DNA of 15,256 nt from a virus. This document shows positions 1-13,208 of the stretch, piece by piece. The DNA is taken from the UHGV virus genome UHGV-0159580; one strand, written 5' to 3'. The notes beneath the pieces were generated by a model. The model did not search any database, was not told the origin of the DNA, and saw only the letters and a program-made list of their open reading frames with translations. The position numbers and the translations under genes are program-made. The stretch's first letter is position 1; the number at the start of each line of letters is the position of its first letter.

Positions 1-435
1 TAAGTACTCTTTGTAGTTGTACAGTCGCTTTGTTAATGTGCACTCTTTGTCAAAATCAAACCGCAAGTCAGTTGTCAACGTAAATTTGCGCACACTTGAC
101 AAACACCATGCCTTGAATGCATTCCACAGAACATCTTGCTGAAATTCTGAGCAATGCTCAAGAGCAGCCTTTGAGCCCTGCCAGAATATTGCGCAATCAT
201 CTGATTTTGCGCACTTCAGCATATCTTGCCATGCATGTATGCTGTTGATAATATGCACCTTATCATGCACAAGCTCATCAAGTGTTGCATGTTTGTTCTC
301 AGGGTCGCCAAACACGTATACAGCATCAAACATTGTCTGCACAAAACCTGCAAATGCGATGGGTTCTGTATGTTTAAGATGCTGTATGTCTGAACGTACG
401 CATGTGTCAAATTTCAAAATGAAGAGTTTGCTCAT
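1..435 (-). CDS. Hypothetical protein, partial (C-terminal part lies beyond the window's left edge); not in the ORF track
   Basis: Manual translation of the minus strand shows one frame open from ATG at 435..433 to position 1 with no stop (about 145 codons, MSKLFILKFDTCVRSDIQHLKHTEPIAFAGFVQTMFDAVYVFGDPENKH...KRLYNYKEYL). Composition is protein-like. It overlaps the dCMP deaminase 3' end by 29 nt; an internal ATG at 333..331 would give a non-overlapping start. It competes with the Cys-rich 64-aa ORF 216..410. Confidence 0.45.
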   Translation of the reverse strand, partial: MSKLFILKFDTCVRSDIQHLKHTEPIAFAGFVQTMFDAVYVFGDPENKHATLDELVHDKVHIINSIHAWQDMLKCAKSDDCAIFWQGSKAALEHCSEFQQDVLWNAFKAWCLSSVRKFTLTTDLRFDFDKECTLTKRLYNYKEYL

Positions 436-1132
436 ATGCTTTGCAATTATCTATTACATGTTGATATTGTACTTCATCTATGATGTGATTTGCAATGACA
501 CCATATGAAGTGTCATACATTGGCATCTTCTCATATGACAACGCTGCGTCAAGATTGCATATCACATAATTGCAATGCGCAATGTCATCTACATTGTCAC
601 TAACTGCTACGATATTGACGCAATTTGCAAGAAATGCATCATCAAAGTCTACTTGATTGCATGCAACTTCATAATCTGCAGCGCTTCTTGGGTACCAATA
701 TAACTCAATGCCAGCGCTACTAAGTAGTCGCAAGCCATCTATGTGATGATACAAGTCAACAAAATGCACTTGCTTAACACCTGCTTGCAAAATGAGCTTT
801 GCACAATCAATGCATGGACTGTATGTTACATACAACACGGCGTCGTTTGCAGTTGCATTGCCATATTTGCATAGCTTCATCAATGCATTTGATTCTGCAT
901 GCAAAACTTCTTTGTTGGTTTTGATACCTGCTGATGTTGCATGCTCACAACAATTTGACATACCAGTTGGCATGCCATTATAGCCATCTGAAATTATGCA
1001 GCCATCTTTTACAAGCAATGCGCCAACTTTTGCTCGCTGAGCATGTGAATTTAATGACCAGAGCTCAGCCATTTTAAGATATATGAGATTTCGTTGAAAC
1101 CACTTCGTTTCAGACCAAGTTAGCCATTTCAT
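407..1132 (-). CDS. Deoxycytidylate (dCMP) deaminase, cytidine/dCMP deaminase zinc-binding family, with a C-terminal extension of about 90 aa of unknown function
   Basis: Complete ORF with ATG start. Carries the zinc-ligand motifs of the CMP/dCMP deaminase fold: HAESNAL (H-A-E) and SPCIDCAK (PCxxC), preceded by VGALLVKDGCIISDGYNGMPTG, typical of dCMP deaminases. Confidence 0.8.
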   Translation of the reverse strand: MKWLTWSETKWFQRNLIYLKMAELWSLNSHAQRAKVGALLVKDGCIISDGYNGMPTGMSNCCEHATSAGIKTNKEVLHAESNALMKLCKYGNATANDAVLYVTYSPCIDCAKLILQAGVKQVHFVDLYHHIDGLRLLSSAGIELYWYPRSAADYEVACNQVDFDDAFLANCVNIVAVSDNVDDIAHCNYVICNLDAALSYEKMPMYDTSYGVIANHIIDEVQYQHVIDNCKAYEQTLHFEI

Positions 1133-5282: not shown

Positions 5283-5651
5283 TTATTGCATATTGTCGAC
5301 AATCAGCTGTTCAAGTGCAGTAGCTGACAATGCGCCAGTTGCACGGCCAACTTCAATGCAATCACGAAAGACAATTGTCGTTGGTACTGAACGAACATTG
5401 TGAGTGCTATCAAGCTCATCGCACTCTTCAACATTCACTTCAGCAAATGTCACTTTGCCATTGAATTTCTTTTCAGTTGACTCGAAAATTGGCGCATAAC
5501 CTTGACAAGGCACACACCATGGCGCACTGAACTTCACTACAACGAGTGGATTGTTTGCAAGTGCTCGAGCCATTTCGGCTTTATGTTTGAGTTGCAGCAT
5601 ATCTTTTTTTATGTTTGTTGTTGACAATATATGTATATTTGCATTACGCAT
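5283..5651 (-). CDS. Thioredoxin (thioredoxin fold with a CVPC active site)
   Basis: FSAPWCVPCQGYAPIFE matches the thioredoxin WCGPC region with Gly replaced by Val. The C-terminal VRSVPTTIVFRDCIEVGRATGALSATALEQLI matches the thioredoxin cis-Pro and Gly region (E. coli GIRGIPTLLLFKNGEV...GALSK). The start at 5651 overlaps the upstream gene by 8 nt; an internal ATG at 5600 is possible. Confidence 0.85.
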   Translation of the reverse strand: MRNANIHILSTTNIKKDMLQLKHKAEMARALANNPLVVVKFSAPWCVPCQGYAPIFESTEKKFNGKVTFAEVNVEECDELDSTHNVRSVPTTIVFRDCIEVGRATGALSATALEQLIVDNMQ

Positions 5652-6117: not shown

Positions 6118-7713
6118 TCAAAGCTTGAATTTTTGCACTTTTGCATCTACTGGCATCTTTTCAGCGTCATAGATTCGTTTTCGAGCAGCAAAGTGTTGCA
6201 TGTCATAATTGCAGTAGCAATAGCCTTTGCGAAGCTTGACAAGCATATCACTGTGAATTGTAAGCTTATGTGCAATATCAATAATGATTGCTTTCTGCTT
6301 AAGTGGATGCTTACGCAACAGTCGACCAATTGACTGTAATGTTACGTTGTCAGATTTGCCAATCATTAAGAACGCAGCGTAAAACCAAGCATGCACAGAT
6401 ACACCTGTAGACAAAGTACCAGTAGTTGCAATCATGATATGTCTGTCAGGCTCTGCTTCCATCATTGCAAGCATATCTTTGCGTTCATGCAAGGGTACAT
6501 CACCTCTAATGATGTGAACAACCTTGTCAACACCAGACTGCTGTATGAATGTTTGGCAAGCATCATAGATGTTCTGCACATGGTCTCGTCGTTTGCAAAG
6601 TACAAGAGCATTTTTGTCAAGCGAACAAATGATTTTTGCAATGAGCTTGTTAGCATCGACGTAGTTCATGCAATGATGTTGTTCTGCTGGAAGCAGTCTT
6701 GCAGTGTTATCAAACACTTCAGGATGCTCTTCAAGATACTGCACAAATGGCGCATCGTATTCTGCTGAATGCTCAATGACTACTCGTTTGATTTCAAAGT
6801 CAGACACGATGTTCTTTTCGAGTGCTTGAGCTACACCAAATGTACCCAATATTGGCCCAATGTACGATTCAATTGTCAAACGAGCTGCAGTATGTTCAAG
6901 CGGCAATGAACCAGACACACCAAGACGATAATGAGCCTTTGTGCAATGACTGAAGATTTCACGAATTGATGCTGCAGGTGCACCATGAGCTTCATCAGTC
7001 ACAATAAAGTCAAACTGTTCGAAAAAATCTGCTGGCATATTGACAAGACTTTGATATGTGCCGACAACCATATCTGCATCTTGCATTTTGTACTCATTGC
7101 GAACGCCTGAATGGATTTTGTAGAGCTTGTAGTTCTTGTTTGCTAAATCTGACTCATTTTGTTGATAGCTGACAACAATATCGTCAAATGCTTGTGATAC
7201 AAGATGCACCGAGGGTACAATCATAAGCGTTTTGCCATTGATTCTCTTGCTATCTTTTAAGAAGCGACTAATTACATAAACAAGAGCTGTTTTGCCATAA
7301 GACGTCGCAAGGCGCAAACAGCATTTCTTGAATTTGCAAGCAGTCAAAATGAATTTGAGCTGGTCGTCACGCATGTCAAATGGCATGTCAAGACATTCTG
7401 CCCATTGCTCAAGTTCTTCAAGCGATACAATGCGGTCAAAATTGTCAATGAGACCCTCAATCTTGACTTCATATGGAATTGGCTTACGCAATTGTAGGTC
7501 CCAAATACGCTTCCATAAGCCAAATGGCAAGTACACGCCATTAAACACATAGCAAATTTGCCCATTCCAATCTGCTTTGCGACCTTTACGCTTATTGACT
7601 GCTGCTGCAACAAAGTTTGGCACTTCTGCAGTAGCTTCAGCATACAATTGCTTGACTTCCAAATCATTTGCTTCGACAATCTGAAGCAAATCACCTATGA
7701 CTTTGAGTCTCAT
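6118..7713 (-). CDS. Superfamily 2 DNA/RNA helicase (DEAD/DEAH-box type; UvsW-like role possible)
   Basis: Helicase motifs are present in canonical order: Walker A LATSYGKTAL, motif II VTDEAH, motif III GVSGSL, motif V IATTGTLSTGVSV and motif VI QSIGRLLR. An N-terminal domain of about 130 aa is unassigned. Confidence 0.85.
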   Translation of the reverse strand: MRLKVIGDLLQIVEANDLEVKQLYAEATAEVPNFVAAAVNKRKGRKADWNGQICYVFNGVYLPFGLWKRIWDLQLRKPIPYEVKIEGLIDNFDRIVSLEELEQWAECLDMPFDMRDDQLKFILTACKFKKCCLRLATSYGKTALVYVISRFLKDSKRINGKTLMIVPSVHLVSQAFDDIVVSYQQNESDLANKNYKLYKIHSGVRNEYKMQDADMVVGTYQSLVNMPADFFEQFDFIVTDEAHGAPAASIREIFSHCTKAHYRLGVSGSLPLEHTAARLTIESYIGPILGTFGVAQALEKNIVSDFEIKRVVIEHSAEYDAPFVQYLEEHPEVFDNTARLLPAEQHHCMNYVDANKLIAKIICSLDKNALVLCKRRDHVQNIYDACQTFIQQSGVDKVVHIIRGDVPLHERKDMLAMMEAEPDRHIMIATTGTLSTGVSVHAWFYAAFLMIGKSDNVTLQSIGRLLRKHPLKQKAIIIDIAHKLTIHSDMLVKLRKGYCYCNYDMQHFAARKRIYDAEKMPVDAKVQKFKL

Positions 7714-7720
7714 GACATGA

Positions 7721-7768
7721 CTTGTTAAATGAAAAGAGGCTCAGACAAACAATGTCTGTCTGAGCCTC
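7721..7768 (-). terminator. Hairpin plus U-tract (terminator or attenuator candidate) between the SSB-like gene and the helicase gene
   Basis: Perfect 12-bp stem gaggctcagaca (7736..7747) with tgtctgagcctc (7757..7768) and a 9-nt loop. On the minus strand it is followed by UUUUCAUUU (plus 7727..7735). Confidence 0.45.
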
Positions 7769-7790
7769 GAGCATCTTTGATGCACTTGTG

Positions 7791-8921
7791 CTACTTGAGC
7801 CCGTTGATGAATGCTTCAGTTTCAGCATCCATCGTTGCTGCTGCAGGTGCTGCTGCCGGAGCTGCTGCAGGTGCAGGCTCTGCTGCAGGCGCTGAAGCTG
7901 CTGCAAACGGGTCAATAGCTGTCTGAGCTGCTGGTGCAGTAGCAGGCGCAGCTGCCGGAGCTGCTGCAGGTGCAGGCTGAGTAGTCTGTGCCTGCTGAGT
8001 TGCTGACGGATTGATGACAATGTCAGGCCAGATGTCCGACACATCCTTGTAGTTAGCAAGGCGCATCTTAACCTGACGCTTGATGTCATCAGAAGCTTCG
8101 TGGTAGCCCCACTCCTTTTCGACATTCGGGTACTCCTTGAGCATGTCGACAATCTGCTGCATGATTTGCTGCTTGTATGCAGGGTCAGTGTCATACTTCG
8201 CCTGGTCAACAAGCGTGCCATCTGCAAGCAGCATCGACGATACGTTGGGCGAAATCGTCGAAGTCTCGTAGTCACGCATTTCAACACCATTGACGTCTTT
8301 CAGCGTAATCTTCAAGAGAATGTCGTGGCCCTTAACGGGATGGAACATGTCCATAGGCTGAGCGCCCATCTGGATGTCTTCGTCGGTCGGCTTCATTGCA
8401 GACATGCAACGCTTGTAGATGGCTGCGGGTAACCTGTATGGTAACACGCGACCAACGTTCTCAGTGTGCACTGAATCAGCCTTGATTTGCACGAGGCAAG
8501 TGTACTGACTCTGCATGCTGAACTCTCGCTTTGCAAGTGCTTCCTGCTGAGCATCCTTGGTATTGATGAGATCCCAGTAAAAATTTGATACTGGGCACCA
8601 ACCATAGGGTTTCATCAAATTTTCAGGATTTTCAGGATGCGGATTCGGCGAGCTCGGCGAATTGTAGCGGAAGCCCTGATTAGCGCCAGTCCCAAACCAG
8701 TAATAGCGGATGATTGAAATCGGCACAGCAGGGTCGTTCAAGTTCGGCAGAATTCGAATGACTGCTCGATAGATTCGGTCCTTACTTTCGGAAGGCTTAG
8801 GATTGAAGAACTCGGGTCCTGCAGAACGTTCCGGCTTAGCAAAGCTTGCTACATTGTCCGGCTGGACATCAAAGATTGACAGCGGCCGATTGCCATTCTG
8901 TCCATTTTCAATTTGTGACAT
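7791..8921 (-). CDS. Putative ssDNA-binding protein, T4 gp32-like, with a Pro/Ala-rich linker and a short C-terminal tail
   Basis: 376-aa ORF with ATG start. RAVIRILPNLNDPAVP resembles the gp32 segment I recall as QAVIRFLPSKNDEQAPF, and VGRVLPYRLPAAIYKRCMSAM resembles gp32 [20 protein letters not shown]. Both comparisons are from memory, not a search. A PAPAAAPAAAPA low-complexity linker precedes the tail ...TMDAETEAFINGLK. Confidence 0.55.
   Translation of the reverse strand: MSQIENGQNGNRPLSIFDVQPDNVASFAKPERSAGPEFFNPKPSESKDRIYRAVIRILPNLNDPAVPISIIRYYWFGTGANQGFRYNSPSSPNPHPENPENLMKPYGWCPVSNFYWDLINTKDAQQEALAKREFSMQSQYTCLVQIKADSVHTENVGRVLPYRLPAAIYKRCMSAMKPTDEDIQMGAQPMDMFHPVKGHDILLKITLKDVNGVEMRDYETSTISPNVSSMLLADGTLVDQAKYDTDPAYKQQIMQQIVDMLKEYPNVEKEWGYHEASDDIKRQVKMRLANYKDVSDIWPDIVINPSATQQAQTTQPAPAAAPAAAPATAPAAQTAIDPFAAASAPAAEPAPAAAPAAAPAAATMDAETEAFINGLK
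7800..7990. repeat. GC-rich simple-sequence region (GCTGCNGGN-type) encoding the Pro/Ala-rich linker, with a duplicated block of about 30 bp
   Basis: gctgccggagctgctgcaggtgcaggct occurs at about 7850 and again at about 7942. The surrounding sequence is a near-periodic gctgc(a/c)gg repeat. Confidence 0.7.
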
Positions 8922-9037
8922 CGCAATAAAATTTTAGAAAGTTTAACAAAAAGTTTGAAATAGACTCTTAAGAAAATCTTCAGAAGTTTATTTGTTTTGT
9001 ATATGTATATGATACAACATGCGAATATCATTTGCAC

Positions 9038-10291
9038 TTATCTTGCATGGCCACAGTCATAAACTGCAACATAACCTGCATCAATCATCTCTTGCTCATT
9101 TTGTCCGCAGTCTTCAATATGCTCTTTTGTTTTGAGATGACACCAGTGTTTGCGAATTGTCGACCTGTCATCTGACAGATGTGGCTTAAGTGCGAAGTCA
9201 GTTGAATCTACAGGTTCACCTGCAAGATGCTTTCTAATGACGTCAATGACTTCATTGTCATCCATCCATTCGAATATTGTAATGCAAGTGTAGCCATGCT
9301 TGAGAGCAAGCTGAGTTTTGTCGAAGTGATATTGCGTGCCAGTCGGCCAATTGTCTTTTGATTTGCCAACAATATAAATGTATGACAATGTTGAATTATG
9401 CGTAATTGTTGGATTGACTTCAATCAATAACTTACAACAATCATTGACATAGCTAAGGTCATATGAACGATTTTCAATGTTAACTGCATCAAAATCACAC
9501 GCAATTCCAAGTTCTTGCAATAATTTGTCATGCCACCATTTATTTGCTTTTGATATGACTTTGCCTTGTGCTGTACGACATTTAGTAGTCATACAATGCC
9601 AAGGCACACCATAACGTTGCATACATGTTTCTGATACTTTACTCATATTGCCGCATCCATTGCCGTATCGCTCACGCTTTATTGCAACGCATTTAGCAAT
9701 GTCACCAAACCCATTACCATATCGCTCACGCTTTGTCGCAATTGATTTAGCAATGTTGCCTGGTCCCGCATTGCCATATCGCTCACGCTTTGTCGCATGA
9801 ATTTTGTCAATAGGCCCAATTGCATTGCCATATTTAGCAATCTTTGCAGCAACAGTCTTTTGCATAGTTTCAGCACTGCATACACCATTATCATAGCGTT
9901 CAAGCTTTGTTGCTACTGCTTTCTGCGGATTACCTGAACGTGCGCCATAGCGTGCAATATTTGTTGCTTCACATTTTTCTTTTGGCCCAAATGTGTTGCC
10001 ATACAGTAGCTTCTTTGTGGCTTGCTGACGTTCAAGAGGTCCTTGTGCATAACCATAGCGCTCAATATTTGTTTGCTTACTTTTATCAATGACTGATTGC
10101 ACAAGTCTACAACTTTCTACACCATATTTGCGTAAGCACCCAATTTTTGTGCCATATCGATTCTTAATTTTGCCGTGTACAGTGACATTTCTGCTCAACC
10201 GAATGTTCTCAGTTGTTCTCAACAACTCATCTCGCTCTTGCTCAAGTTCTGCAATTCGTTTCTCAAGAGCTTCACCAGTTAGTGGTGTCAT
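9038..10291 (-). CDS. Repeat-containing protein: N-terminal coiled coil, about 9-10 tandem repeats of about 21 aa with an (K/E)RYG(N) core, and a C-terminal Vsr/DUF559-like PD-(D/E)xK endonuclease-like domain (homing-endonuclease-like)
   Basis: 417-aa ORF with ATG start and an ATGA overlap with the upstream gene. Repeats include IATKRERYGNAGPGNIAKS, IATKRERYGNGFGDIAKCV and AIKRERYGNGCGNM. The C-terminus LLIEVNPTITHNS...HFDKTQLALKHGYTCITIFEW follows the Vsr/DUF559 pattern (IEvDG..H...D..R...L...GW.vlRf). The domain assignment is by motif only. Confidence 0.45.
   Translation of the reverse strand: MTPLTGEALEKRIAELEQERDELLRTTENIRLSRNVTVHGKIKNRYGTKIGCLRKYGVESCRLVQSVIDKSKQTNIERYGYAQGPLERQQATKKLLYGNTFGPKEKCEATNIARYGARSGNPQKAVATKLERYDNGVCSAETMQKTVAAKIAKYGNAIGPIDKIHATKRERYGNAGPGNIAKSIATKRERYGNGFGDIAKCVAIKRERYGNGCGNMSKVSETCMQRYGVPWHCMTTKCRTAQGKVISKANKWWHDKLLQELGIACDFDAVNIENRSYDLSYVNDCCKLLIEVNPTITHNSTLSYIYIVGKSKDNWPTGTQYHFDKTQLALKHGYTCITIFEWMDDNEVIDVIRKHLAGEPVDSTDFALKPHLSDDRSTIRKHWCHLKTKEHIEDCGQNEQEMIDAGYVAVYDCGHAR
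9657..9835. repeat. Tandem direct repeats of about 57-60 bp, at least three well-conserved copies, inside CDS 9038..10291
   Basis: attgccRtatcgctcacgcttt(a/g)t(t/c)gca... recurs at about 9657, 9713 and 9771, with degenerate copies continuing toward 10180. These encode the (K/E)RYG protein repeats. Confidence 0.8.
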
Positions 10292-11049: not shown

Positions 11050-11664
11050 CTAGCGCAATATAGTCCAAGCTTCAATAATTGCTGAAAAATCTTCAAAGGG
11101 CATTGTAGTGTAGCCGGAATCACCCCAAGATACACCCCAGCTATTCTTAATGATGAATGAGTCTTTTGTGTAGCCGACAATTGACACTGCATGCCCACCA
11201 AAATTGCCATCGCCTTTCCAAAAATGCTCAGCATCAATGTCTTTTACGAGCATGCCAACAAAGACAGGCCCATTTGCTACAACAGCAGATTTGATTTCAT
11301 CAATTGTGTAGCAACGTCTGTATGCAGTTATTGGCAATTGCTCTGAGCCCTTTGACATCTTGATTGGCTGTGCTTTGAGCAGCTTAAAGACATCACGTGG
11401 AATCATGCCCTCTTGAGGTGCATTTGAACGACGCTCATACAATGCTTTGATGTCAAGCTTGCCTTGCATAGACAGCACAGAAGACCACCAGTCAATCATT
11501 GTTGCTGCTGTGTAAGCTGCACACATTGATGTACTGCCTTGGTCTTCTACTTGAAGTTGAGCCAACTTGTACACAAGTGGCAAATCTGTTTTTGCGTCAA
11601 AACGCAAGTCTCTGTCATCTTGAGGCGACTGGATGTAGCCCAGTCCATATGTCGTTTGTTTCAT
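11050..11664 (-). CDS. Papain-family (C1) cysteine peptidase, without propeptide or signal peptide
   Basis: All three catalytic-region signatures of C1A peptidases are present with papain-like spacing: VEDQGSTSMCAAYTA (oxyanion Gln six residues before the catalytic Cys, as papain Q19/C25), GGHAVSIVGY (catalytic His; papain DHAVAAVGY) and IKNSWGVSWGDSGY (catalytic Asn; papain IKNSWGTGWGENGY). Confidence 0.85.
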   Translation of the reverse strand: MKQTTYGLGYIQSPQDDRDLRFDAKTDLPLVYKLAQLQVEDQGSTSMCAAYTAATMIDWWSSVLSMQGKLDIKALYERRSNAPQEGMIPRDVFKLLKAQPIKMSKGSEQLPITAYRRCYTIDEIKSAVVANGPVFVGMLVKDIDAEHFWKGDGNFGGHAVSIVGYTKDSFIIKNSWGVSWGDSGYTTMPFEDFSAIIEAWTILR

Positions 11665-12339: not shown

Positions 12340-12600
12340 TTAGACGTTTTGTAGTTCTACAATATCATATCGCTTATGCAATTCAGACCAGTCACGAACG
12401 TAGCCTGTCATAAAGACGTGCAACATGTATGGTTTGTTGTCAGCATACTTGACTGCGCCTGCAGCATCTTTGATTTGCTTGGCTGTTAGCCAAACTTCTG
12501 CATTGTTGTTTGCATATACACAACGATACACCGGTTCTGATAATTCAGTCACTGTGATTTTCTTGCCATTGCGAAGTATGCATCGTACTTGTTTGTCCAT
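12340..12600 (-). CDS. Hypothetical small protein, paralog of CDS 12924..13208
   Basis: The ORF-track start at 12609 is TTG; the first ATG is at 12600 (MDKQVRCILRNGKKITVTELSEPVYRC...HVFMTGYVRDWSELHKRY). It aligns with the 12924..13208 product (NG..I.ITEL..PV..C...LHV...GYVR.W.EL). Confidence 0.65.
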   Translation of the reverse strand: MDKQVRCILRNGKKITVTELSEPVYRCVYANNNAEVWLTAKQIKDAAGAVKYADNKPYMLHVFMTGYVRDWSELHKRYDIVELQNV

Positions 12601-12630
12601 TGCTTGCAATTTATGATATTGTTAAGATAT

Positions 12631-12927
12631 CTACAAAAAGCAATGCACCATAAAACCCAAGAACATAATTATTGCAGGCTGCATGATGCAATACATAAAG
12701 AACTGTGCAGCAATTGGCAATTCACTGAACTTGTTGACTGTGTCATGATTCTTGAACAATGCCAGTACAAATGATATCCCAATTGCATGCTTAAGTGATA
12801 ACGCAGTCAATGCGGGCCACACGGGCATTACAAACCACTCCCAGAAGTTCATAATAATGCAGCCATTCAGAATGTAGCCTAACAGCATGAACACAATGCA
12901 TGCAACAGTTATCAGAAAGTTTTTCAT
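12631..12927 (-). CDS. Small integral membrane protein (about 3 predicted TM helices)
   Basis: 98 aa with ATG start. Three hydrophobic stretches: FLITVACIVFMLLGYILNGCIIM, VWPALTALSLKHAIGISFVLALF and FFMYCIMQPAIIMFLGFMVHCFL. ATGA overlap with the upstream paralog gene. Confidence 0.7.
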   Translation of the reverse strand: MKNFLITVACIVFMLLGYILNGCIIMNFWEWFVMPVWPALTALSLKHAIGISFVLALFKNHDTVNKFSELPIAAQFFMYCIMQPAIIMFLGFMVHCFL

Positions 12928-13208
12928 ATACGCTCAAGTTTTATGATGTCAGTTCTTAATGATTTGTATGCGGCAAATAATTCAGTCCAGCCTCGTACAT
13001 AACCAACGCCAATTACATGCAATGCATGCGCATCTGGTTTTGCATGACAATGTCTTGCATGAGGCTGCTGTTCAAGTTCTGCTTGTGTAAGATAGGCCTT
13101 TGATGAGTCATCATGCACAAAACATGGAAATACTGGCTGTGCAAGTTCTGTTATGTCAATGTCTTGACCATTAGATAGCTTTGCAAGATATAATGTATTG
13201 GCTTGCAT
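12924..13208 (-). CDS. Hypothetical small protein, paralog of CDS 12340..12600
   Basis: 94 aa with ATG start (MQANTLYLAKLSNGQDIDITELAQPVFPC...HVIGVGYVRGWTELFAAYK). Shares conserved blocks with the 12340..12600 product. Confidence 0.65.
   Translation of the reverse strand: MQANTLYLAKLSNGQDIDITELAQPVFPCFVHDDSSKAYLTQAELEQQPHARHCHAKPDAHALHVIGVGYVRGWTELFAAYKSLRTDIIKLERI

What the first reader, a model, noticed from the sequence alone, without database searches (positions are those of the whole stretch)
7791..8921. gp32-like SSB with an expanded Pro/Ala-rich linker encoded by GC-rich simple repeats
Two blocks resemble T4 gp32 as I remember it (AVIRxLP..ND and VxxYRx...I....AM), placing a gp32-type ssDNA-binding protein next to an SF2 helicase. 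The C-terminal region differs from classical acidic SSB tails: a long PAPAAAPAAAPA linker encoded by a duplicated gctgc(a/c)gg tract that is prone to slippage. The short tail after the linker may be a partner-interaction tip.
Basis: partly seen in the sequence, partly recalled or inferred. Interest (0 to 1): 0.45.

Follow-up and report, generated by a model that had tools for sequence, protein, structure and literature searches.

The report
Zinc-free gp32-type phage ssDNA-binding protein

Summary

The tail (aa ~301-376) is predicted to be disordered. It is the most Pro/Ala-rich of 154 family representatives and is weakly acidic. It is encoded by real 12-nt tandem repeats and a 44-nt duplication. 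It is not notably expanded (75th percentile of length) and shows no length variation among close relatives.

The last 13 residues (EAFINGL) carry the same acidic-hydrophobic tip motif as T4 (DDLLNDL).

Only one of T4's four zinc ligands survives, as in most of the nearest 150 relatives. The N-terminal LAST motif is replaced by a conserved PLSIFDV motif. A subfamily-specific [DN]PF motif sits inside the linker.

Verdict: a divergent variant of a known protein family. Interest is modest.

The parts
7791..8921 (-). Complete CDS of the gp32-family ssDNA-binding protein (376 aa plus stop codon)
   Evidence: ORF list and translation; Pfam PF08804 at 56.9 bits; the identical gene occurs on 4 metagenomic contigs.
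8772..8921 (-). N-terminal extension (aa 1-50), low model confidence. It contains the conserved motif PLSIFDV (aa 13-19, nt 8865-8885) and FFNPKP (aa 38-43). It has no basic Lys-Arg-Lys-Ser-Thr (LAST) motif.
   Evidence: Residues invariant across the subfamily; related hydrophobic-acidic motifs (IFDF, MFGVFG) at the N-termini of the wider clade; pLDDT 48-57.
8022..8771 (-). gp32 core (aa 51-300): OB-fold DNA-binding domain plus C-terminal helices, modelled with pLDDT >90
8586..8702 (-). Region equivalent to the T4 zinc subdomain (aa 74-112). Only C109 (nt 8595-8597, equivalent to T4 C87) is retained. It includes a subfamily-specific ~14-aa insertion, NPHPENPENLMKPYGW.
   Evidence: Three independent alignments (phmmer, MAFFT, profile). 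The H-C-C-C ligand pattern is present in only 4 of 161 aligned sequences.
7833..8021 (-). Disordered Pro/Ala(/Gln/Thr)-rich linker (aa 301-363)
   Evidence: pLDDT 41-52; Pro+Ala fraction 0.57, the highest of 154 representatives; GC 0.58-0.61.
7935..7978 (-). Ala/Pro block copy A, encoding (Q)PAPAAAPAAAPATA (aa ~315-329)
   Evidence: Direct repeat family D1, 89% identical to the copy at 7836-7879; identical codon choice over the first 8 codons.
7905..7913 (-). Internal short motif D337-P338-F339 (context AIDPFA)
   Evidence: [DN]PF occurs in 13/13 subfamily tails and 3/143 other tails. Every aromatic residue in the subfamily tails lies in this motif or in the tip motif. A synonymous change in the Pro codon in a relative leaves the motif intact. 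The three residues fall outside the listed pLDDT<50 segments of the linker.
7836..7879 (-). Ala/Pro block copy B, encoding (E)PAPAAAPAAAPAAA (aa ~348-362). It contains the 12-nt tandem repeat and occupies the position where sister lineages have a second DPF motif.
   Evidence: TRF period 12, 3.2 copies; repeat family D1; tail alignment with P0002-P0004.
7794..7832 (-). C-terminal tip (aa 364-376, MDAETEAFINGLK): a predicted amphipathic helix and candidate partner-docking motif
   Evidence: Helix 366-375 at pLDDT ~82. It matches the family tip motif [DE]x[LIFVMW][LIFVM]xx[LIFM], which is shared with T4-type DDLLNDL. The profile aligns the family tip to the T4 C-terminus.
7726..7768 (-). Intrinsic terminator just after the stop codon: a 15-bp stem (8 G-C pairs), a 3-nt loop and a T-rich tail
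   Evidence: Terminator scan; inverted repeat I2.
8922..9037 (-). AT-rich 116-nt leader/promoter region (GC ~0.30), conserved in relatives. It has a TTCTGAAGA-type direct repeat, no Shine-Dalgarno sequence and no unusual RNA structure.
   Evidence: Alignment of upstream regions; fold z-score +0.39; no Rfam hit.
6118..7713 (-). UvsW-like SF2 helicase gene immediately downstream: a conserved neighbour and a candidate partner for the tail
   Evidence: 2OCA UvsW at E=3e-32; ResIII/DEAD domains; synteny in P0001, P0003, P0007 and Chryseobacterium phage MA9V-2.

Best explanation
The gene encodes the replication/recombination ssDNA-binding protein of a large (~175 kb) uncultured phage whose nearest cultured relatives infect Bacteroidota (Chryseobacterium).

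Shown:
- It is homologous to T4 gp32 in sequence and in predicted fold.
- It keeps the main basic and aromatic residues of the OB-fold DNA cleft.
- It lacks three of the four T4 zinc ligands and the N-terminal LAST motif.
- It ends in a disordered tail.

Inferred:
- It coats ssDNA through the conserved cleft without needing the T4-type zinc site.
- It assembles cooperatively through its own conserved N-terminal peptide (PLSIFDV), not through a basic LAST peptide.
- Its tail acts as a tether. The Ala/Pro-rich segments serve as extended, uncharged spacers that present two short docking motifs: an internal I-D-P-F and a terminal amphipathic helix, D-A-E-T-E-A-F-I-N-G-L. These would recruit replication or recombination partners, by analogy with T4 gp32, whose tail binds Dda, UvsW and gp59.
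- The UvsW-like helicase encoded next door is the most obvious candidate partner.
- The Ala/Pro spacers arose by local DNA duplication. In this lineage one such duplication replaced a second DPF motif that sister lineages keep.
For: Homology and fold:
- Pfam PF08804 56.9 bits; phrog_224 SSB; 1GPC E=6.7e-8.
- Profile against 8GME E=3.3e-44; model pLDDT 84.
- Conserved cleft residues.

Zinc ligands: Y/S/C/S or Q/P/C/S, depending on the alignment, against H/C/C/C in T4-type gp32. Only 4/161 aligned sequences have the full set.

Tail:
- Disordered linker and confident terminal helix.
- Tip motif enriched roughly ninefold over shuffled tails and shared with T4-type gp32.
- [DN]PF in 13/13 subfamily members against 3/143 others. 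All tail aromatic residues sit in one of the two motifs, while the spacer sequence and length drift.

Precedent: the T4 tail is bipartite, with a Dda-docking helix (A255, V258, L262, F265) and acidic-aromatic D-x-F elements (PMC11551737). T4 UvsW and gp59 need the gp32 tail (PMC10391720).

Context: SSB-UvsW-like synteny is conserved down to 30% identity. Related contigs are 175 kb. The best cultured match is Chryseobacterium phage MA9V-2.

Duplication origin.
Against: - No biochemical data exist for this protein or for any zinc-free gp32 relative that I could find.
- A replacement metal site cannot be excluded. H95, C109, C142, H152 and H194 are invariant in the subfamily, and C142 co-occurs with C109.
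- The partner of either tail motif is unknown, and gene adjacency to the helicase is only circumstantial.
- The window protein has just one DPF, and its shuffle probability is only 0.017. The motif's significance therefore rests on its conservation in related, non-independent sequences.
- The host assignment rests on 30%-identity hits.
Confidence: 0.8

Rival explanations
1. The [DN]PF motifs imitate the C-terminal tip of bacterial SSB (consensus D-D-D-[I/L]-P-F). The phage SSB would then hijack host SSB-interacting proteins (for example RecQ, PriA, exonucleases or the clamp-loader chi subunit) and not phage partners.
For: The first motif is always [I/V]-[D/N]-P-F, a near-permutation of D-[I/L]-P-F. 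Some subfamily members place a DPF 1-3 residues from the C-terminus (DPFA, DPFK, DPFAKQ). One family member, P0071, ends in a canonical ...DDLPF, so gp32-type proteins can carry a bacterial-type tip.
Against: From established knowledge of SSB-Ct complexes, binding of the bacterial tip depends on the free alpha-carboxylate of the terminal Phe. Here the motif is internal in the window protein and never exactly terminal in the subfamily. The acidic run before the motif is absent. No host is identified.
Confidence: 0.1
2. The Ala/Pro-rich linker and the internal DPF are functionally neutral low-complexity filler produced by replication slippage. Only the core and the terminal tip matter.
For: Linker sequence and length vary widely across the family (38-159 residues after the anchor). 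Twelve of 154 tails contain exact tandem peptide repeats, and each lineage uses different DNA repeat units. The window lineage lost the second DPF without apparent harm.
Against: The first DPF is retained in all 13 subfamily members despite complete turnover of the surrounding spacer. Tail length is invariant (77 aa) across four alleles at 92-97% identity, and the tail diverges less at the nucleotide level than the core (10/228 against 71/750). That is not what an unconstrained, slippage-prone tract would show.
Confidence: 0.15
3. The tail acts mainly in cis, as an auto-inhibitory or cooperativity-tuning element. It would fold back on the DNA-binding cleft or on neighbouring SSB molecules, as proposed for T4 residues ~273-301 and for the E. 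coli SSB linker and tip, and would not act as a recruitment tether.
For: T4 and T7 SSB tails compete with DNA for the cleft (PMC11551737; PMC10391720). The tail here has a net charge of -5. Repeated aromatic 'sticker' motifs in a disordered spacer (up to 5 in P0012) would also suit self-association.
Against: The acidic fraction is only 0.08 against 0.30 in T4-type gp32, so the tail is a poor DNA mimic. The tip motif is shared with T4-type gp32, and in T4 the gp32 tail is needed for partner binding. The two roles are not mutually exclusive.
Confidence: 0.15
4. The protein has a gp32 fold but was repurposed for a function other than SSB, for example as a recombination directionality factor or a regulator.
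For: Distant gp32-like OB folds have been co-opted as integrase cofactors (PMC11795197). The core LAST motif in the DNA trough is not clearly conserved.
Against: The gene sits in a replication and nucleotide-metabolism module beside a UvsW-like helicase, thioredoxin and dCMP deaminase. The key cleft residues and the partner-docking tip are conserved. The gene has its own terminator and the highest GC3 in the window, which fits an abundant protein. No integrase is seen in the window.
Confidence: 0.03

Closest known systems
Bacteriophage T4 gp32 (PDB 1GPC, 8GME) and RB69 gp32 (2A1K, 2ATQ)
   Different: About 18-27% identity. Only one of the four zinc ligands is kept. There is no N-terminal Lys-Arg-Lys-Ser-Thr motif (PLSIFDV instead). 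A ~14-aa insertion sits in the former zinc subdomain. The tail is Ala/Pro-rich and weakly acidic (0.08 against 0.30) and carries a DPF motif where T4 has its Ser/Asp-rich stretch.
Chryseobacterium phage MA9V-2 single-stranded DNA binding protein (WNN12351.1), a 218-kb myovirus
   Same: The best cultured match (30.6% identity, E=1e-28). It has the same zinc-less ligand pattern (Y/A/C/S), the same SSB-then-DEAD-box-helicase gene order and a Pro/Ala/Gln/Val-rich tail.
   Different: No [DN]PF motif (NPIA at a comparable place), no DNA tandem repeats in the tail, a shorter tail (63 aa) and no 14-aa insertion.
Bacterial SSB (E. coli type): intrinsically disordered linker plus C-terminal tip
   Same: It works in a similar way: an OB-fold DNA binder carrying a Pro/Gln/Gly/Ala-rich disordered linker that presents a short acidic-aromatic docking motif ending in P-F.
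Ala/Pro-rich inter-domain linkers of 2-oxo-acid dehydrogenase E2 chains (from my own knowledge; not tested here)
   Same: Near-identical composition ((A/P)n runs such as PAAAPAAAPA). These linkers are known to behave as extended, flexible but fairly stiff spacers.
   Different: No homology. The context is entirely different: swinging lipoyl domains as opposed to an SSB tail.

Membership tests
gp32 family (Pfam PF08804 / T4-type phage SSB) | Sequence match to the family profile above the curated threshold | tested here: met
   56.9 bits against a gathering score of 26.8, residues 53-281; phrog_224 at 3.8e-16; family profile against 8GME at E=3.3e-44.
gp32 family (Pfam PF08804 / T4-type phage SSB) | gp32 core fold (OB-fold with its flanking subdomains) | tested here: met
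T4-type gp32 in the strict sense | Structural zinc site formed by His64, Cys77, Cys87 and Cys90 | tested here: not met
   Only the Cys87 equivalent (C109) is kept. The other positions are Y or Q, S or P, and S in three alignments. The full ligand set occurs in only 4/161 aligned sequences. An alternative metal site could not be tested.
T4-type gp32 in the strict sense | Basic N-terminal cooperativity peptide with the LAST motif (Lys-Arg-Lys-Ser-Thr) | tested here: not met
   The first 30 residues contain one Arg and one Lys, far apart, and no KRK run. The conserved element is PLSIFDV. The motif definition comes from PMC12893549.
T4-type gp32 in the strict sense | [quoted passage not shown] | tested here: inconclusive
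   phmmer aligns T4 KRKTS with KREFS (K131, R132), but these residues are not conserved in the subfamily. MAFFT places SMQSQ there instead. A 4-residue indel makes the region ambiguous.
T4-type gp32 in the strict sense | Disordered acidic C-terminal domain that recruits partner proteins | tested here: inconclusive
   The disorder and the conserved tip motif are met. Acidity is low (0.08 against 0.30). Partner binding cannot be tested here.
gp32 family (Pfam PF08804 / T4-type phage SSB) | Cooperative, sequence-independent ssDNA binding | not testable with these tools
   Only conservation of the cleft residues R56, Y140, Y162, R163 and Y218 could be shown.
gp32 family (Pfam PF08804 / T4-type phage SSB) | Location in a phage replication/recombination gene module | tested here: met
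   The UvsW-like helicase is adjacent, and thioredoxin and dCMP deaminase are nearby. Synteny is conserved in relatives.
Bacterial SSB C-terminal tip (SSB-Ct) mimic | D-D-D-[I/L]-P-F at the free C-terminus | tested here: not met
   The window protein has an internal AIDPFA and ends in ...FINGLK. No subfamily member ends exactly in P-F. Only the distant relative P0071 ends in DDLPF.

The most novel reading that the evidence does not exclude
The [DN]PF elements scattered through the tails of this subfamily (1 to 5 per protein) are a previously undescribed class of multivalent docking motif in a phage SSB. They would imitate the D-[I/L]-P-F tip of the host's own SSB, so that the phage SSB captures the host SSB interactome. 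Together with the zinc-free core and the non-LAST N-terminal peptide, this would define a mechanistically distinct branch of gp32 proteins.
Probability: 0.12. Interest if true: 0.6.

Novelty: new variant of a known kind. Interest (0 to 1): 0.3.

Why it matters
gp32 is the textbook cooperative SSB, and it is used as a reagent in recombinase polymerase amplification. Its mechanism is described in terms of a structural zinc site, LAST motifs and an acidic tail.

This protein and most of its 150 nearest metagenomic relatives keep the fold but lack the zinc ligands and the N-terminal LAST motif. That suggests the T4 features are lineage-specific and not defining for the family.

The tails give a clear natural example of how an SSB tail evolves. 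The spacers turn over through local repeat duplication, while two short motifs are kept, moved or multiplied.

If the zinc-free proteins prove stable and cooperative, they could be useful metal-independent SSB reagents. If the DPF motif has a defined partner, it would add a new SSB-partner interface. None of this changes the basic classification: it is a phage SSB.

Tried and rejected
1. Megablast of the whole window against 50,697 phage records found nothing. The phage has no close cultured relative.
2. The first homolog search, with the full-length protein, returned only 5 hits, probably because the low-complexity tail dominated the word index. Repeating it with a core-only alignment gave 11. 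The exhaustive profile search gave 542.
3. The first AlphaFold run, on 6 sequences, was unusable (pLDDT 38). It was replaced by a 149-sequence run.
4. T4-style translational autoregulation through a structured leader: there is no Rfam match, and the leader folds no better than shuffled sequence (z=+0.39). Nothing here supports it. An unstructured AU-rich operator is neither shown nor excluded.
5. Recent slippage polymorphism: I looked for tail-length differences among identical and near-identical alleles and found none.
6. A replacement metal site: co-variation of Cys and His columns gave a suggestive C109-C142 association.
7. The overlapping 199-aa ORF 7691-8290 in another frame was set aside as a by-product of the GC-rich repeat (QQLRQL-type translation).
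8. Literature searches for zinc-free gp32 homologs and for DPF motifs in SSB tails found no description in the library searched. That library is incomplete.

Full report
**Observation.**
The window is a complete metagenomic contig (ENA ERZ507895 NODE_2236), and nearly all its long ORFs are on the minus strand.

The tail is ...QPAPAAAPAAAPATAPAAQTAIDPFAAASAPAAEPAPAAAPAAAPAAATMDAETEAFINGLK. At the DNA level, TRF reports a 12-nt unit (TGCTGCTGCAGG, 3.2 copies, 7836-7874). The repeat finder reports a 44-nt block at 7836-7879 that recurs at 7935-7978 with 89% identity. The first eight codons of the two blocks use identical synonymous codons, which indicates duplication of DNA.

GC reaches 0.61 in the tail, against 0.41 for the window.

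**Identity of the protein.**
- Pfam gp32 (PF08804) scores 56.9 bits against a threshold of 26.8, over residues 53-281.
- PHROG 224 (single strand DNA binding protein) gives 3.8e-16.
- phmmer against PDB sequences finds only gp32 chains (1GPC 6.7e-8, 8GME, 2A1K, 2ATQ).
- An exhaustive profile search found 542 cluster representatives at E<=1e-3.
- A profile built from 149 of the best-scoring 150 matches full-length T4 gp32 at E=3.3e-44.
- With that alignment the AlphaFold model has mean pLDDT 84 and >90 through residues ~40-300.
- Foldseek against the PDB returns only T4 and RB69 gp32 as significant hits (1GPC E=7.6e-13, target TM 0.72).
- Cleft positions equivalent to T4 R46, Y115, Y137, R138 and Y186 are conserved as R56, Y140, Y162, R163 and Y218. 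Their role in T4 is from my own knowledge of the 1GPC structure.

This is a gp32-family SSB.

**Context.**
- The gene immediately downstream (6118-7713) is an SF2 helicase most similar to T4 UvsW (2OCA, E=3e-32).
- The SSB-then-helicase order is kept in the 93%-identical relative, in 56-61%-identical relatives, and in Chryseobacterium phage MA9V-2, whose SSB is only 30.6% identical.
- Thioredoxin and dCMP deaminase genes follow.
- Two IMG/VR contigs carrying 93-97%-identical copies are ~175 kb long.
- No deposited phage is close at the DNA level.
- The gene has its own strong terminator (15-bp stem plus a T-run) and an AT-rich conserved leader.

(a) Zinc site. The T4 ligands are His64, Cys77, Cys87 and Cys90 (established knowledge, and consistent with H/C/C/C in the RB14 reference sequence). 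The pairwise, MAFFT and profile alignments all agree that only the Cys87 equivalent (C109) is kept and that Cys90 is Ser. There is no other Cys, and only one His (H95, inside a subfamily-specific insertion), between residues 70 and 112. Among 161 aligned sequences only 4 have the full ligand set. The query therefore belongs to a broad, apparently zinc-free part of the family. I could not exclude a new site. H95, C109, C142, H152 and H194 are invariant in the subfamily, and Cys142 occurs almost only with Cys109 (30/31).

(b) N-terminal LAST motif. The basic motif that drives T4 cooperativity (PMC12893549) is absent. The subfamily has an invariant PLSIFDV instead, and the wider clade has related hydrophobic-acidic motifs.

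(c) Internal LAST motif. Conservation is ambiguous.

**The tail.**
The model shows a disordered segment (~311-363, pLDDT 41-52) followed by a helix at 366-375 with pLDDT ~82.

Across 154 full-length representatives the usual design is a low-complexity linker ending in an acidic-hydrophobic tip. The strict motif [DE]x[LIFVMW][LIFVM]xx[LIFM] occurs in the last 25 residues of 58/154 proteins, against 4% of shuffled tails. Both the T4-type DDLLNDL and the query's EAFINGL fit it. The family profile also aligns its tip to the T4 C-terminus.

The linker is compositionally extreme. Its Pro+Ala fraction is 0.57, the highest of 154 (median 0.17). Its acidic fraction is 0.08 (median 0.21; T4-type 0.30).

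Its length is unremarkable: the 75th percentile overall, and within the 57-130 aa range of its subfamily.

**The DPF motif.**
In the query's subfamily (13 sequences, 56-93% core identity), every aromatic residue in the tail belongs to one of two motifs. One is [I/V/x][D/N]PF[A/K/G] and the other is T-x-x-F-[I/V]-x-x-[L/I/M].

[DN]PF is present in 13/13 subfamily tails and in only 3/143 other tails. Copy number varies: 1 in the window lineage, 2 in most, 5 in P0012. Position relative to the tip helix also varies, while the spacers between motifs change completely, from Ala/Pro-rich to Gln-rich. This is how short linear motifs typically evolve.

In the window lineage the second DPF, present in sister lineages just before the tip, has been replaced by the duplicated Ala/Pro block.

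**Is the repeat unstable?**
Over short timescales no instability is seen. The gene is 100% identical on three further contigs from other samples. Three other alleles at 92-97% identity have no indel in the tail. The tail differs less at the nucleotide level (10/228) than the core (71/750).

Over longer timescales repeat-driven turnover is evident. Each subfamily lineage has its own tandem unit (9, 12, 15 or 18 nt), and 12/154 family tails carry exact tandem peptide repeats.

**Mechanism.**
The fold and the conserved cleft are shown.

What follows is inferred from the T4 precedent. In T4 the tail has an internal amphipathic helix (residues 248-269) that docks on the Dda helicase through A255, V258, L262 and F265, followed by an acidic stretch (PMC11551737). 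UvsW, gp41 and gp59 depend on the gp32 tail (PMC10391720).

By analogy, the Ala/Pro segments here would be uncharged, extended spacers that present the DPF motif and the terminal helix to partners. Ala/Pro linkers of this composition behave that way in 2-oxo-acid dehydrogenases (my own knowledge). The adjacent UvsW-like helicase is the most obvious candidate partner.

Alternatives that remain open are mimicry of the bacterial SSB tip, a purely neutral linker, and a mainly cis-acting regulatory tail. They are ranked in the rival explanations.

**Comparison and novelty.**
The protein is a member of the Pfam gp32 family by sequence and fold. It fails two features that define the characterised T4-type protein: the zinc site and the N-terminal LAST motif. 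It also differs in tail chemistry.

I found no description of zinc-free gp32 relatives or of DPF motifs in SSB tails in the searchable literature, but that library is incomplete.

I classify it as a new variant of a known kind. A specialist would not be surprised to find a gp32-like SSB beside a UvsW-like helicase in a large phage. The variant features are worth a note but are untested. Interest 0.3.

Noticed in passing
window 9038-10291 (minus strand): A 417-aa protein directly upstream of the SSB gene. It is built from about eight copies of an ~18-aa module (K-R-E-R-Y-G-N-type; a 54-nt DNA tandem repeat lies at 9657-9797). It gives weak hits to DUF7487 and to a homing-endonuclease PHROG. The gene is absent from the same position in the P0002 contig (L010), so it looks like a mobile insertion.
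   Followed up: partly
window 7791-8921 compared with all other genes: The SSB gene has the highest GC (0.515) and GC3 (0.533) in the window (other genes 0.35-0.48). Even without the tail its GC is 0.496. This may reflect codon adaptation of a highly expressed gene or a different evolutionary history.
   Followed up: no
window 8922-9037 (minus strand); L001, L007, L008, L010 upstream regions: The conserved AT-rich leader carries a direct repeat of TTCTGAAGA-type elements whose spacing differs between lineages (3 against 15 nt). There is no Shine-Dalgarno sequence. It could be a promoter or operator element. It has no unusual RNA structure and no Rfam match.
   Followed up: partly
window 8495-8597 (residues 109 and 142); family alignment: Cys at position 142 occurs almost only when position 109 (the single retained T4 zinc ligand) is also Cys (30 of 31 sequences). 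H95, H152 and H194 are also invariant in the subfamily. This may be a replacement metal site or a structural coupling. Distances could not be measured.
   Followed up: partly
protein P0071 (family relative, no locus): One gp32-family relative ends in ...NDPNDDLPF, which matches the C-terminal tip motif of bacterial SSB and not the usual gp32-type tip.
   Followed up: no
window 12340-12609 and 12924-13208 (minus strand): Two small ORFs (89 and 94 aa) look like paralogs. They share ...ITxTELxxPVxxC...YL(T)...LHV...GYVRxWxEL... Their function is unknown.
   Followed up: no
window 407-1132, 5283-5651 and 11050-11664 (minus strand): A dCMP deaminase with a ~90-aa C-terminal extension that matches no family, a thioredoxin, and a papain-like (Peptidase_C1) cysteine protease are all encoded in the same module.
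   Followed up: no
window 7691-8290 (minus strand, other frame): A 199-aa ORF overlaps the SSB tail in another frame and translates the repeat as QQLRQL-type sequence. It is almost certainly a by-product of the GC-rich repeat and not a gene.
   Followed up: no
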